Shown here: piece after piece, positions 2,160 to 19,351 of the stretch
How the letters are laid out: every line of letters begins with the position of its first letter
Numbering within the stretch: the stretch's first letter is position 1
NCBI GenBank assembly: GCA_963674705.1
Contig: OY771506.1
Location: forward strand, 1,504,001-1,568,000
DNA length: 64,000 nucleotides
Direction: 5' to 3'
From: Phycisphaeraceae bacterium
Lineage (GTDB): Bacteria; Planctomycetota; Phycisphaerae; Phycisphaerales; Phycisphaeraceae
The notes under the pieces: generated by a model
The model's input: only the letters and a program-made list of their open reading frames with translations
What the model was told of the DNA's origin: nothing
The model's database searches: none
Program-made: the position numbers and the translations under genes

Positions 2160-4172
2160 TTAGGCCATGGCAGGCGTTGCCTGCCCGGATTCTGTGTCCT
2201 GCTCCTGCTGAGGTTTGGCTTGCGAGGCTTGCAGGGCCTGGTGTTCCTGCTGCTCGATTTCCTCGCCGCTGCGGACCAGACGCGCCGAGTTAAACACCAC
2301 GATCAGCGAACTGACCACGTGCAGCAAGGCCGCGACCACCGGCGGAATGTGACCCGTGCCGGCGACGATGAGGAACAGCAGGATGAAGCCGCCGCCGATC
2401 GCCATATTCTGCTTGATCACCGCGCTGGTCTGACGCGAGAGCCGGACCAGGAACGGGATACGGTTCAGGTTGTTGTTCATCAGGGCGATGCTCGCCGAGT
2501 GGATCGCCACGTCACTGCCGGCAGCACCCATCGCGATCGAGATGTCGCCGGCCTTCAGCGCCGGAGCATCGTTCACGCCGTCGCCGATCACCGCAACACG
2601 GTGGCCCGCACTCTTCAAGCCATCCACCATCTCCAGCTTCTGGTGCGGCAGCACCTCGGCCTGGTATTCGGTGTGCATCTGGCCTGCTACTCGCTTGGCA
2701 ACCGATTCGCGGTCACCCGTGACAATGATCAAACGCTTCAGGCCCATCTCACGCAGGTCGTCCATCGCGCCTGCTGCCTGCGGACGGGTATTGTCCGCCA
2801 GACCTAACCAGCCCAGGAATTGGCCGTTACGTATCACGAACAGGGTCGAGAGCCCCTCGGCCTCCGGATCGTTGATGGCCTGCTCGATCTGACCTCGAAT
2901 CTGATCGTCATGTACTTCCTGCGTAATCCAGTTACCCCGGCCGACCAGGATGGTCTGGTTGTCGAACGATGCACGGACACCCTTGCCGGCCTCTTCGTGG
3001 AATTCGTTCGGATCACTGAGGTTCAGCCTCGCTTTACGGGCGACTTCAAACACGGCCCGCGCCACCGGGTGACGTGAACGCTGCTCAGCCGACGCAGCCG
3101 CCAGCAGCAGGTCCGCACCCTCGACGCCCTCGGCCGGGCTCAGACGCGTCACTTCCAACTGCCCCGTCGTCAGCGTGCCGGTCTTATCGAAGACCATCGC
3201 GGTCAGGTTACGTGCGCCTTCCAAATCAGTGACGGACTTGACCAGCACGCCTAATCGAGCGGCAGCGGAGATCGCCGCGACCATCGCGGTCGGCGTGGCA
3301 AGGATCAGCGGGCAAGGACAGGCAATCACCAGCATGGAGATCGCCGCGACCGCAGCCGCTTCCGGATTGGTCTGCGAGGTGTAGAACCAGACGATGAACA
3401 CGATCATCACGACGGTTGGCGTGTACCAGCCGGCATAACGGTCGATCATTCGCATCAAGGGAATCTTGGTCCGCTCGGCCTCGATGATCATGTCTTTGAC
3501 CCGGCCCAGCGTTGTGTCTTCGCCGGCCTTGGTGACCTTGATATCCATCGCACCGGTCAGGTTGATCGTGCCGCCGAAGACCTCATCGCCTTCGATCTTG
3601 TCAGCAGGGAGCGATTCACCGGTGATGTTCGCCTGGTTGACGGTGGAATGGCCCGATTCGACAAGGCCGTCAGCGGGGATGTTGTCGCCCGGCCGGACGC
3701 GGACGATATCGCCGGGGATCAGGTCCTTGGCTTCGACCTCGGTCTCCTGGCCGTTTTCCAGCTTGTGGGCTTTGGTTGGGGTGATGCGGACGAGGGCCTC
3801 GATATCACGCTCAGCACCCAGGGCTGTGCGGTTTTCGATCAGCACTGAAATGATCATGAAGAACGCAATGAAGCCGGCTTCGATGTACCAGCCCTTGGCG
3901 AACGCGGCGAGCACCGCCAGTGCCACCAACTCGTTCATGTGCATGTGTCCCTGCCAAAGGTCCTTCAAGGCCACCCAGACAAGCGGGGTGCCCAGCAGGA
4001 CCGTAGCGATACCGGCAAGCAGGTCCGAGGGGTCGTTGACATCAAAGGTAAGTTTGGCGATCAGCGCGCACATCAGCAACGTGCCGCCAAGCAGCGTCGC
4101 GATGATCTCCAGGCTTACCCGCCCGGTTTTGGATTTCAGGGCAAGGTCTTCTGCCAGATAGTCGTGGGCCAT
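2160..4172 (-). CDS. Heavy-metal translocating P1B-type ATPase (CadA/ZntA-like) without an N-terminal metal-binding domain
   Basis: TGES, intramembrane CPC, DKTGTLT phosphorylation site, HP, TGD and GDGVNDAP motifs. Confidence 0.92.
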   Translation of the reverse strand: MAHDYLAEDLALKSKTGRVSLEIIATLLGGTLLMCALIAKLTFDVNDPSDLLAGIATVLLGTPLVWVALKDLWQGHMHMNELVALAVLAAFAKGWYIEAGFIAFFMIISVLIENRTALGAERDIEALVRITPTKAHKLENGQETEVEAKDLIPGDIVRVRPGDNIPADGLVESGHSTVNQANITGESLPADKIEGDEVFGGTINLTGAMDIKVTKAGEDTTLGRVKDMIIEAERTKIPLMRMIDRYAGWYTPTVVMIVFIVWFYTSQTNPEAAAVAAISMLVIACPCPLILATPTAMVAAISAAARLGVLVKSVTDLEGARNLTAMVFDKTGTLTTGQLEVTRLSPAEGVEGADLLLAAASAEQRSRHPVARAVFEVARKARLNLSDPNEFHEEAGKGVRASFDNQTILVGRGNWITQEVHDDQIRGQIEQAINDPEAEGLSTLFVIRNGQFLGWLGLADNTRPQAAGAMDDLREMGLKRLIIVTGDRESVAKRVAGQMHTEYQAEVLPHQKLEMVDGLKSAGHRVAVIGDGVNDAPALKAGDISIAMGAAGSDVAIHSASIALMNNNLNRIPFLVRLSRQTSAVIKQNMAIGGGFILLFLIVAGTGHIPPVVAALLHVVSSLIVVFNSARLVRSGEEIEQQEHQALQASQAKPQQEQDTESGQATPAMA

Positions 4173-4539
4173 GGGTCGGTTGTTCCTTGGAAGTCCGATA
4201 ACCCAAGTTCGTTTAAAACAGGCGAACAGCGGGTGTTAAACAATACGTCGGGTATGCTAGAAAGTTCGCGCCAAACGTTCCAATCCTCAAATCCAGACCG
4301 ATGCAACGCGACTCATTCTCGGGACAACAGATAATTACATAACTCTAGGTAGATCAAGAGACAAAAGCGTTCAGGCCGGGAATCAGCCTATTACTTTCAG
4401 GTGATTGATATTAAAAATGATTGAAGAAATACCACGGCGGTCAGATCCTGCCACTCTCCTGCTCTCCTGTTCTACCTTCGCCTGCTCTGAACGGCCCGTC
4501 CCTTCGCTGCGCTCAGGACCGGCGTTGGGGGGAAGGAAA

Positions 4540-4569
4540 GCCATTAGCCTTTAGCGATTAGCCATTAGC
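4540..4569. repeat. Four tandem heptamers GC(C/G)(A/T)TTA
   Basis: gccatta gccttta gcgatta gccatta gc. Confidence 0.7.
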
Positions 4570-4597
4570 ATCGCTACACCCCACCCACCCCGCGCGT

Positions 4598-4647
4598 AAA
4601 AATCCCGCAGCCAGATCCGCTATAGATATGCCGGTCTGACTGCGGGA
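4598..4647 (-). terminator. Rho-independent terminator
   Basis: Minus strand tcccgcagtcagaccg...cggatctggctgcggga followed by TTTT(T); ~15-bp stem. Confidence 0.75.
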
Positions 4648-5120
4648 CCACTTGGAGGACTGTTGTGGAATGCGTCGGCTTCTGGTTTTTCAGGTGACGC
4701 TTCCCTCGGAATGGGGTGGGGCTTACATCTTACCCTATTATTGTCGCAGTGGTTGGCGTTTCTGCCGTTTCCCACAAGTTTTTAACTTGTTTCTGCTTGT
4801 TTCTTAATCTCAACCATCCACGTTGCACCGTTTTTTGGCTGATGTACGGGGTGGTTTGTCTGGTTCCTTGTCGCTTGCGTCGACTTCTTCTTCGGCAAGC
4901 CATATATCCGAGTGCGGTGCTCAGCGTTACGCCATACTTCGCATTCGATCTGGCGTCTGCCTTGCCTTCTTCACCGAACCTGTACTGAGCCACGTATGCC
5001 CGCATCACATCACTCGCGGTCTACTAGGCCCTACTACGCCAGGCCACGGTTCCGGTGTTCGCGCTGACACGCCGAGAAACGCAGTTTCCTGGCCCGCCCG
5101 TCGGAGTACGCCTCTGACGC
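4598..5120 (-). ncRNA. Candidate sigma-54-dependent structured ncRNA (~520 nt)
   Basis: Bounded by a consensus -24/-12 promoter and a strong terminator; about 9 hairpins with A-rich linkers; no credible ORF. Confidence 0.55.
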
Positions 5121-5130
5121 CCTTCTTATA

Positions 5131-5147
5131 TGCAAGCGCTGTGCCAA
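5131..5147 (-). promoter_or_regulatory. Sigma-54 (RpoN) -24/-12 promoter
   Basis: Minus strand TTGGCACAGCGCTTGCA = TGGCAC-N5-TTGC; predicted +1 near 5120. Confidence 0.8.
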
Positions 5148-5407
5148 TATCCAAAACAGCCCTCTGGACCAAATATCCCGTATCCAACCGCTTCTCCATG
5201 CTTATGTAATAATCAGTGGCCACTTGCTCGCGCATTTAATAGGCGGATTGGCTAACTGCGTTAAGATCTCATGAGTTAGGATTGGGCAAGACAGGCAAAA
5301 TACGAACCCACTTCGCGGTAGCATGGTAAGAGAACAACACGCGCGATGACTCATTCACATTCATACGTTTAACAAACCTGTAGCGACCCTTCATGGAGAC
5401 TACTGTC

Positions 5408-19084: not shown

Positions 19085-19351
19085 CCAAACTTCTCAACCC
19101 TCCAACCTTGATGCCATGCAAACAAAGCGTTTGTGAGGCATCAAGGTTTTTTCATTTCGGCTGGGGCGAAGCGCTACCCGACTATGTTAAACGTGTTGGC
19201 GCGACAGTTCCTTACCGGTGTATACAAACTGTCTCACTACTCAGGAATCGAAAATCAAACAAAAAGCAAGGTCAATCAGCACTTCCTTGATAAACTACAT
19301 GTTCGCGTTCGTAGCCGGGCCGCGTCGTAGCATCATCCGGCGCACCCACGT

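What the first reader, a model, noticed from the sequence alone, without database searches (positions are those of the whole stretch)
4598..5147. Sigma-54-driven, ~520-nt highly structured non-coding transcript with its own terminator
Seen: a perfect RpoN promoter (TTGGCACAGCGCTTGCA, minus strand, +1 ~5120) points into a 520-nt stretch ending in a ~15-bp stem plus U-tract at 4598-4647, about 430 nt short of the ATPase start. The stretch folds by eye into consecutive hairpins: ggcca..tggcc enclosing gaaac/gtttc; tgcgg-gctcag..ctgagc-accgca enclosing acgcca/tggcgt; gcttgc/gcaagc; aaccacc/ggatggtt; acaagtt/aacttgt; ggaagcgtc/gacgcattcc. Loops and linkers are A-rich (gaagaagaag, aagaaacaagcagaaacaag). 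The only ORF (92 aa, GTG start) has no clear RBS or recognisable domain. Established: Pseudomonas CrcZ/CrcY are sigma-54-dependent, A-rich protein-sponge RNAs of a few hundred nt. Inference: an uncharacterised planctomycete large sRNA, possibly a protein decoy. I do not recognise it as tmRNA, RNase P, 6S or SRP RNA.
Basis: partly seen in the sequence, partly recalled or inferred. Interest (0 to 1): 0.8.

Follow-up and report, generated by a model that had tools for sequence, protein, structure and literature searches.

The report
Small-protein gene with anti-ribosome-site RNA tail
This stretch is not one large folded non-coding RNA: it holds a conserved sigma-54-type promoter, a short reading frame that evolves like a protein gene, and an invariant 12-base tail motif that recurs behind unrelated genes in relatives and likely acts as a small regulatory RNA covering the ribosome-binding sites of other messages.

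Summary
The sigma-54 motif and terminator are real and are kept at the same locus in 6 of 11 genomes of this Phycisphaeraceae genus. The 'highly structured non-coding' reading fails. Without the terminator the fold is no better than shuffles (z -0.5). Five of nine named helices are damaged in a 92%-identical relative, with no compensatory change. The 91-codon ORF shows purifying selection (dN/dS 0.22, p 0.002, frame-keeping indel). Three relatives carry a two-helix membrane protein in its place. The genome has no detectable Hfq and the A-rich motifs are not conserved, so this is not a CrcZ. What is conserved is the 3' end: an invariant GUCCUCCAAGUG directly before the terminator. UCCUCCAAGUG also ends the sigma-54-type hsp20 gene in two relatives and a third, unrelated gene; this hsp20 was found in the same 6 genomes. 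Best reading (0.5): an mRNA for an orphan small protein whose 3' UTR supplies an Hfq-independent anti-Shine-Dalgarno sRNA, like cpxP/CpxQ or glnA/GlnZ. Expression, processing and targets are untested. The scan noted other CU-rich Phycisphaerae sRNAs on other DNA, but not this module.

The parts
5199..5215 (-). 17-bp imperfect palindrome TGATTATTACATAAGCA, 68 bp upstream of the sigma-54 motif; candidate activator site (function inferred)
   Evidence: Near-identical at -68 to -70 in G000, G004, G007, G009; a related sequence at -95 in G005, G006; not seen in the 4 intergenic regions that lack the unit; only one other near match in G000
5131..5147 (-). sigma-54 (-24/-12) promoter motif; predicted +1 about 5120
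   Evidence: Conserved in 6 of 6 orthologous units; rpoN and 13 strong sigma-54 activator domains in the genome
5099..5119 (-). 5'-terminal hairpin starting at G(C/U)GUC
   Evidence: A hairpin is predicted at the same place in 6 of 6 units from different sequences; GCGTC also follows the hsp20 sigma-54 motif in 5 of 6 genomes
5006..5120 (-). 115-nt 5' leader (115-152 nt in the six units)
4730..5005 (-). ORF for a 91-aa basic orphan protein (MRAYVAQYR...; 20 K+R, no transmembrane helix)
   Evidence: G000 vs G004: 11 synonymous and 9 non-synonymous changes, 13 of 20 at third positions, dN/dS 0.22, p 0.002, one 3-nt indel; N-terminus MRAY.AQ.R shared with G009 through synonymous codon changes, global shuffle p 0.005
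4661..4729 (-). 69-nt variable part of the 3' UTR, ending in an A/C- or A/U-rich stretch before the motif
   Evidence: Stop-to-motif distance 52-113 nt in the six units; 4 of 40 aligned columns before the motif invariant
4649..4660 (-). Invariant 12-mer GUCCUCCAAGUG, complementary to (C)ACUUGGAGGAC-type ribosome-binding sites; candidate sRNA seed
   Evidence: 12 of 12 columns invariant in 6 of 6 units; UCCUCCAAGUG also directly precedes a terminator behind hsp20 in G007 and G009 and behind an unrelated gene in G010
4598..4648 (-). Intrinsic terminator, 14-bp stem plus U-tract
   Evidence: 96% of cells paired, 1 pair with a two-sided change, slid controls 29-42%; 0 differences in 63 nt between G000 and G004
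4455..4570 (.). Dispersed intergenic repeat lying between the terminator and the ATPase promoter; not part of the unit
   Evidence: 86 BLASTN hits at E<1e-8 in the genome, 61 of them at least 60 nt
4254..4283 (-). Separate sigma-70-like promoter motif of the ATPase gene (TTGGAA-18-TAGCAT; assignment by eye)
   Evidence: Conserved in 10 of 10 genus loci examined, including the 4 without the unit
2160..4172 (-). Downstream neighbour: P-type ATPase
   Evidence: PF00122, PF00702
5393..6079 (+). Divergent upstream neighbour: metallo-beta-lactamase-fold hydrolase
   Evidence: PF13483, PF12706

Best explanation
The locus carries a conserved sigma-54-type promoter, a 91-codon reading frame under purifying selection and an invariant GUCCUCCAAGUG motif directly before a terminator, and it is likely transcribed as one ~520-nt mRNA whose 3' end likely works as an Hfq-independent antisense RNA that pairs with UUGGAGG-type ribosome-binding sites of other mRNAs. 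Shown by comparison: promoter, ORF and 3' module are syntenic in 6 genomes; the ORF is coding; the interior has no conserved structure; the same motif plus terminator ends other, unrelated genes, notably the sigma-54-type hsp20. Inferred: a sigma-54 activator switches the unit on, probably under the same stress as hsp20. The small protein is made; it is a two-helix membrane protein in G005, G006 and G007 and a basic soluble peptide here. An RNase E/G-type cut in the A/U-rich stretch before the motif would release a 60-90-nt seed-plus-terminator RNA, or the whole mRNA may pair directly. The seed would block translation of GGAGG-led mRNAs, which in this genome are a minority rich in PEP-CTERM and prepilin-type exported proteins. 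My odds: coding mRNA 0.85; the 3' motif is a functional RNA element 0.75; it acts in trans on ribosome-binding sites 0.5.
For: Coding: dN/dS 0.22 (G000/G004, p 0.002; other sense frames 1.17 and 5.7) and 0.16 (G005/G006). Synonymous divergence 0.18 lies between those of the flanking genes, 0.09 and 0.23. Every unit has an ORF starting M(R/K)A 115-152 nt after +1. The membrane form is a family: 17 clusters and 6 representatives at E<=0.001. RNA element: 12 of 12 invariant unpaired columns against 4 of 40 upstream, across two separate subclades (one-clade tree rejected, AU p 9e-5). UCCUCCAAGUG plus terminator occurs behind hsp20 in G007 and G009 and behind a 279-aa gene without Pfam match in G010. 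All 6 hsp20 orthologues have a sigma-54 motif and a C/U-rich tract directly before the terminator. This hsp20 was found at E<=1e-30 in the same 6 of 11 genomes as the unit. G000 has four copies of a related UUUCUCCCCUCCG-plus-terminator module behind different genes. An RNase E/G gene is present. GGAGG occurs upstream of 127 of 391 crudely called PEP-CTERM genes against 316 of 3882 other genes.
Against: No expression, processing or binding data. No conserved target was shown. Shuffled seeds that keep CCUCC find as many or more strong sites in G000 (66 genes below -15 kcal/mol for the real seed, 59-193 for 8 controls). TTGGAGGA-ATG sites also occur in genomes without the unit (1.7-5.3 per Mb against 3.4-7.2). 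The PEP-CTERM/prepilin enrichment of TTGGAGG (34 of 65 against 102 of 387, p 6e-5) is matched by TA-, AT-, CA- and GA-GGAGG, and paralogues are not independent. The seed is only partly unpaired in predictions (0.38-0.58 in full transcripts). The G000 protein has no homologue in the protein databases and no significant similarity to the membrane form (hhalign probability 0.3%; shuffle p 0.01-0.8), so that link rests on position. Its dN/dS rests on one pair and 20 changes. Several genomes are incomplete MAGs, so the co-occurrence with hsp20 may be overstated. Hfq was not found and no chaperone is identified.
Confidence: 0.5

Rival explanations
1. The unit is a small-protein mRNA and the conserved 3' motif acts in cis: a binding site for a protein or nuclease that sets the stability, 3' trimming or location of the mRNAs that carry it.
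For: The motif always abuts a terminator and recurs behind different genes, which fits a portable stability element equally well. No specific trans target emerged.
Against: All variants (UCCUCCAAG, UUCUCCCCUCC, UUCCAUCCCCUUC) are anti-Shine-Dalgarno-like. A conserved non-coding RNA in 10 of 11 genus genomes carries invariant purine tracts that pair with the UUUCUCCCCUCCG variant at about -21 kcal/mol, which points to base-pairing as the mode of action for this class.
Confidence: 0.25
2. An ordinary sigma-54-type small-protein gene; the 3' conservation is a terminator with a flank kept by chance or copied between loci without function.
For: One further plain terminator also matched between G009 and G000 in the control. 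CTCC in the 16 nt before 306 predicted terminators is only mildly enriched (15 against 9.7).
Against: The 12 unpaired bases are invariant while the protein is below 35% identical between subclades. The same 11-mer sits at the same place behind non-homologous genes in 3 genomes. The reversed control pattern gave 5 hits in 144 genomes.
Confidence: 0.1
3. One reading: a ~520-nt structured non-coding RNA that sponges an RNA-binding protein (CrcZ- or CsrB-like).
For: Sigma-54 motif, own terminator and similar length in 6 genomes (467-622 nt). The genome has three CsrA-family genes. The G000 protein is an orphan with a weak ribosome-binding site (-6.2 kcal/mol).
Against: Coding signature. Of 58 predicted pairs inside the ORF, 11 are broken and 0 compensated in G004. 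z is -0.52 without the terminator. AAnAAnAA counts are 1,0,0,0,0,0 and GGA is below expectation in all six. No Hfq found. Interiors do not align across subclades. The relatives' ribosome-binding sites score alike (-4.8 to -7.2).
Confidence: 0.06
4. A type I toxin-like mRNA whose 3' anti-SD folds back on its own ribosome-binding site.
For: Long leader, 5' hairpin, small hydrophobic protein in 3 of 6 genomes, and a 3' CCUCC.
Against: The 12-mer pairs poorly with its own start region (-4.2 to -6.3 kcal/mol), and its best internal site differs in every genome. The G000 protein is not hydrophobic. The same motif ends hsp20. Single copy.
Confidence: 0.05
5. A 5' leader or attenuator of the downstream P-type ATPase.
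For: Same strand, 186-425 nt upstream of the ATPase start in all six.
Against: The ATPase has its own conserved promoter-like motif in 10 of 10 loci. Four genomes and one metagenome contig have the same neighbours without the unit. A dispersed repeat separates the two here. No metal riboswitch match.
Confidence: 0.04

Closest known systems
3'UTR-derived sRNAs: GlnZ from glnA (PMC9731577; abstract and section 14 read) and CpxQ from cpxP (as described in that section; its envelope-stress role is recalled)
   Same: An mRNA whose 3' UTR holds a conserved seed just before the terminator, with a variable stop-to-seed spacer; an RNase E/G gene is present. The glnA operon is NtrBC-activated (10.1101/2022.07.25.501400, search listing).
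   Different: No sequence relationship; no Hfq found in this genome; the seed is anti-Shine-Dalgarno; the same seed sits behind several unrelated genes; processing is not shown.
C-rich anti-SD sRNAs such as the cuckoo/CcsR/NfeR1 family and S. aureus RsaE or RNAIII (recalled; NfeR1 seen only as a search listing, 10.1101/2025.11.14.688489)
   Same: A CCUCC-type unpaired motif complementary to ribosome-binding sites.
   Different: One motif at the foot of the terminator rather than in hairpin loops; embedded in an mRNA; no Rfam match.
CrcZ/CrcY of Pseudomonas (PMC5113210; passages read)
   Same: RpoN-type promoter; a few hundred nucleotides long.
   Different: CrcZ antagonises Hfq/Crc and lies downstream of cbrB. 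Here Hfq was not found, no activator gene is adjacent, A-rich repeats are not conserved and the interior is coding.
Dual-function sRNAs such as SgrS/SgrT and SR1 (recalled; definition read in PMC9731577 section 14)
   Same: One transcript with a small ORF and a separate base-pairing region at the 3' end.
   Different: Longer ORF (55-105 aa) that has turned over between a membrane form and a basic form; whether the full-length RNA or a cut fragment pairs is unknown.

Membership tests
CrcZ/CrcY | Sigma-54 promoter | tested here: met
   Motif conserved in 6 of 6; rpoN present; dependence not tested
CrcZ/CrcY | Multiple A-rich AAnAAnAA sites (motif recalled) | tested here: not met
   1,0,0,0,0,0 in the six units
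CrcZ/CrcY | Hfq as partner | tested here: not met
   PF17209 not found in G000, 96.6% complete; control rang in 5 of 14 genomes
CrcZ/CrcY | Match to the Rfam model; non-coding | tested here: not met
   No such hit; ORF dN/dS 0.22
CsrB/RsmZ-type sponge | Many GGA motifs in hairpin loops | tested here: not met
   GGA 3-11 per unit against 8.4-13.2 expected; ANGGA 1-3, although CsrA genes exist
tmRNA / RNase P / 6S / SRP | Match to family models | tested here: not met
   No hit in the region; tmRNA at C1:4163111, RNase P at C1:3526071, a weak 6S-like hit at C1:3994574; SRP not searched elsewhere
3'UTR-derived sRNA (GlnZ/CpxQ type) | Parent transcript is an mRNA | tested here: met
   Coding signature; translation itself not tested
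3'UTR-derived sRNA (GlnZ/CpxQ type) | Conserved seed before an intrinsic terminator | tested here: met
3'UTR-derived sRNA (GlnZ/CpxQ type) | Stable processed 3' fragment (RNase E) | not testable with these tools
   RNase E/G gene present; no cleavage data
3'UTR-derived sRNA (GlnZ/CpxQ type) | Conserved trans targets | tested here: inconclusive
   Complementary sites exist but are not more than for shuffled seeds or in genomes without the unit
3'UTR-derived sRNA (GlnZ/CpxQ type) | Hfq dependence (typical of the enterobacterial members) | tested here: not met
   PMC9731577 section 14 notes 3'UTR-derived sRNAs regardless of Hfq function in Gram-positive bacteria
Type I toxin mRNA | 3' end sequesters own ribosome-binding site; short hydrophobic toxin | tested here: not met
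   -4.2 to -6.3 kcal/mol to own start region; G000 protein maximum 19-residue hydropathy 0.17

The most novel reading that the evidence does not exclude
Phycisphaeraceae, lacking Hfq, run a distributed antisense system: several sigma-54-type stress mRNAs (hsp20, this small-protein gene, others) each carry an interchangeable anti-Shine-Dalgarno seed-plus-terminator module, released to throttle the minority of SD-led mRNAs, mostly PEP-CTERM and other exported proteins, and buffered by purine-tract sponge RNAs. At this locus the protein has drifted from a membrane protein to an unrelated-looking basic peptide while the RNA seed stayed invariant, a snapshot of an mRNA turning into an sRNA carrier.
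Probability: 0.25. Interest if true: 0.75.

Novelty: new variant of a known kind. Interest (0 to 1): 0.5.

Why it matters
My two paper searches on planctomycete small RNAs (open-access library only) returned no study of a Phycisphaerae sRNA, and this genome has no detectable Hfq. A seed module that recurs in the 3' UTRs of unrelated sigma-54-type genes gives a concrete 12-nt handle for testing how base-pairing regulation works in this phylum and how 3'UTR sRNAs arise and move between genes. It also adds an uncatalogued, genus-restricted small-protein gene. It is not a new large ncRNA class, and 3'UTR-derived and anti-SD sRNAs are established concepts.

Tried and rejected
Rfam at E<=10 on the region and E<=5 on five orthologous loci: only noise. 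Pattern search for 3' module paralogues with 3 mismatches: 71 of 144 genomes hit, close to the reversed control. Of 13 non-orthologous hits fetched, none had a terminator context. The exact 21-mer in 185,579 genomes gave 6 hits: 5 orthologues and 1 Pirellulaceae hit inside a coding-like stretch with no terminator, which I count as chance. JGI metagenome scan for motif plus terminator: 0. Scan for the ATPase promoter motif: 1 contig, lacking the unit. G000 protein, alone or aligned with G004 and G009: no homologue. Membrane family: no family shared by more than 1 of 18 members in Pfam, or 1 of 6 in NCBIfam and PHROGs; Atlas hits under 0.9; AlphaFold model a low-confidence helical hairpin (pLDDT 64, pTM 0.31) with no PDB match at E<=0.001. 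Profile search in 144 family genomes: 3 real hits, all in the genus, and 3 weak ones at E~0.005 not followed. An antisense mini-ORF after the plus-strand GGAGG is not conserved: a start codon follows in some units only, and one stops at once (sequences). The 285-nt sponge-like RNA as specific partner of this seed: the 10-bp match (-16.7) is present only in G000 and G004, 2 of 10; rejected. Pairing with the ACGGA-loop element (-14) relies partly on non-conserved bases; not pursued. Sequencing runs: no RNA holder listed, which says nothing on expression. Of 23 listed runs I laid 4, all contigs: they gave a G004-like allele and one contig sharing only 4598-4661; the other small-share runs were not examined. 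Weak covariance-model hits in G014 and G150 resemble the module, with mismatches, and are not counted.

Full report
Observation. The minus strand carries TTGGCACAGCGCTTGCA at 5147-5131 and a 14-bp stem with a U-tract at 4648-4598, 425 nt upstream of a P-type ATPase; a metallo-beta-lactamase-fold gene diverges on the other side. The strict sigma-54 motif occurs once in the 5.54-Mb genome. rpoN and 13 strong sigma-54 activator domains (16 hits in all) are present. Rfam gives only noise; tmRNA and RNase P lie elsewhere. Record titles of orthologous loci name Phycisphaeraceae or Phycisphaerales.

Orthologues. BLASTN over 101 genomes matched 7: G000, G004 over the whole length, four more only over the last 60-66 nt, and one chance 26-mer. 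In each of the four, a sigma-54 motif lies 494-649 nt from the end of the terminator, between the same two neighbours. The unit is thus in 6 of 11 genus genomes. G002, G003, G008 and G010 have the neighbours without it, as does one metagenome contig, and G001 is broken at the locus. The six fall into two subclades on an ATPase tree (single clade rejected, AU p 9e-5). Outside the genus the locus was not syntenic in the 19 best ATPase loci examined. The ATPase has its own conserved promoter-like motif in 10 of 10 loci, so the unit is not needed as its leader.

The interior is not a conserved structure. The whole-unit z of -2.62 falls to -0.52 without the terminator; one relative, G009, still gives -2.86. 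Against G004 (92% identical), 11 of 58 predicted pairs inside the ORF are broken, 3 are kept by a one-sided change, 2 are lost to a gap and none is compensated, while 18 of 18 terminator pairs are unchanged. A-richness, AAnAAnAA and GGA motifs are not conserved or enriched. Hfq was not found; three CsrA-family genes were.

The interior is coding. The ORF ATG5005-4730 (91 aa) shows 11 synonymous and 9 non-synonymous changes against G004, 13 of 20 at third positions, dN/dS 0.22 (binomial p 0.002), and a 3-nt indel; the other sense frames give 1.17 and 5.7. This rests on a single pair. G009 encodes a 55-aa peptide sharing MRAY.AQ.R through synonymous codon changes (global shuffle p 0.005, local 0.02). 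G005, G006 and G007 encode 99-105-aa proteins with two hydrophobic helices (dN/dS 0.16 for G005/G006). That form has 17 database clusters and 6 representatives at 50% identity and no known family or fold. The G000 protein is basic, lacks a membrane helix and has no database homologue. Its kinship with the membrane form is positional, with a shared M(R/K)A start. Statistical tests are mostly negative (hhalign 0.3%; pairwise p 0.08-0.8) and only the profile-versus-shuffle test is marginal (p 0.014).

The 3' end is the conserved RNA element. GUCCUCCAAGUG is invariant in 6 of 6 units, against 4 invariant columns in the 40 before it. The stem after it is 96% paired with one two-sided change (not significant alone, 37 of 500 shuffles). 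As a control I compared 394 kb of four relatives (156 unmasked segments of at least 100 nt) with G000. Of 41 non-coding hits most were tRNAs, repeats or unmasked coding sequence, and by eye only this module, one other motif-plus-terminator and one plain terminator were single-copy 3'-end hits (the regions were chosen around this locus). A covariance model over 144 family genomes matched 9: the 6 orthologues and weak hits in G007, G010, G014 and G150. The G007 hit is the 3' UTR of an Hsp20 gene and the G010 hit follows a 279-aa protein without Pfam match; both have exact UCCUCCAAGUG directly before a terminator hairpin. The pattern search found 10 distinct loci in 144 genomes: 6 orthologues, those 2, and 2 without a hairpin, against 5 hits for the reversed control.

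Link to hsp20. The close hsp20 orthologue was found at E<=1e-30 in the same 6 of 11 genomes (the cut-off was mine, and not found is not absent). All six have a sigma-54 motif, five with GCGTC at the predicted start as in this unit. All six end in a C/U-rich tract before the terminator: UCCUCCAAGUG in G007 and G009, UUUCUCCCCUCCG in G000 and G004, UUCCAUCCCCUUC in G005 and G006. G000 has the UUUCUCCCCUCCG module behind hsp20, an HtpX-like gene and a ROK-like gene (both names from my reading of the sequences, not from a call), and at the end of a non-coding RNA. That RNA was pointed out by earlier finding e1-9581398. I confirmed it in 10 of 11 genus genomes, with invariant purine tracts pairing to the UUUCUCCCCUCCG variant at about -21 kcal/mol, but its match to this locus's seed is not conserved. 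The upstream palindromes of hsp20 and of this unit differ, so a shared activator is not shown.

Targets. Only 452 of 4319 crudely called genes have GGAGG upstream, and they are rich in PEP-CTERM-like genes (127 of 391 against 316 of 3882 others). The best seed matches include many such exported and prepilin-type proteins (28 of the top 66) and a flagellin-like gene. But shuffled seeds do as well, other A/U-flanked GGAGG sites are as enriched, and genomes without the unit also have these sites. No specific target is established.

Mechanism and comparison. The best reading is an mRNA with a 3'UTR-borne anti-Shine-Dalgarno sRNA, working like GlnZ or CpxQ but without Hfq; an RNase E/G gene is present. 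For GlnZ I read the abstract and section 14 of PMC9731577; CpxQ details beyond that section, and the C-rich sRNA families, are recalled. For CrcZ I read passages of PMC5113210; the AAnAAnAA motif is recalled. Passages of PMC12316311 link sigma-54 to chaperone, stress and CsrA genes in Planctomycetota and contain no sRNA. Searches found no paper on a Phycisphaerae sRNA; subscription journals are not covered, and no supplements were read. Transcription, translation, processing and pairing are all untested.

Verdict. Observation partly confirmed; the large-ncRNA-sponge interpretation is not supported, though the unit is real. New variant of a known kind. Interest 0.5; the bolder case has probability 0.25 and interest 0.75.

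Noticed in passing
G000:C1:1490135-1490216 (about 14 kb before the window); loci L144-L152: A hairpin with an ACGGA loop (CsrA-type site, recalled) plus terminator; its 30-nt core is identical in 9 of 11 genus genomes. It is the 3' UTR of a PEP-CTERM gene in 5 genomes and stands without that gene in 4, including G000: a strong separate candidate for a 3'UTR-derived RNA.
   Followed up: partly
G000:C1:5104091-5104710; loci L193-L198: Sigma-54-type hsp20 gene whose 3' UTR always ends in a C/U-rich anti-SD-like tract, in three interchangeable variants across six genomes.
   Followed up: yes
G000:C1:3196390-3196670; loci L181-L190: Conserved non-coding RNA with invariant GGAGGAGGAG and GGAGGGGAA tracts and a 3' UUUCUCCCCUCCG plus terminator, in 10 of 11 genus genomes; noted before as e1-9581398.
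   Followed up: partly
window 4455-4570: Dispersed intergenic repeat family with (GCTAAYG)n heptamers and a GC-rich core; 86 hits in the genome.
   Followed up: partly
window 19088-19153 (+): CUUCUCAACCCUCCAA directly before a terminator, behind a prepilin-type gene: a possible further member of the C/U-rich 3' module class.
   Followed up: no
G000:C1:5247603-5247748: Single-copy non-coding stretch 83% identical to G009 over 147 nt; unidentified.
   Followed up: no
G000:C1:234319 (-), 4073595 (-), 1800278 (+), 1706131 (-): More C/U-rich tracts abutting terminators behind different genes or in intergenic DNA.
   Followed up: partly
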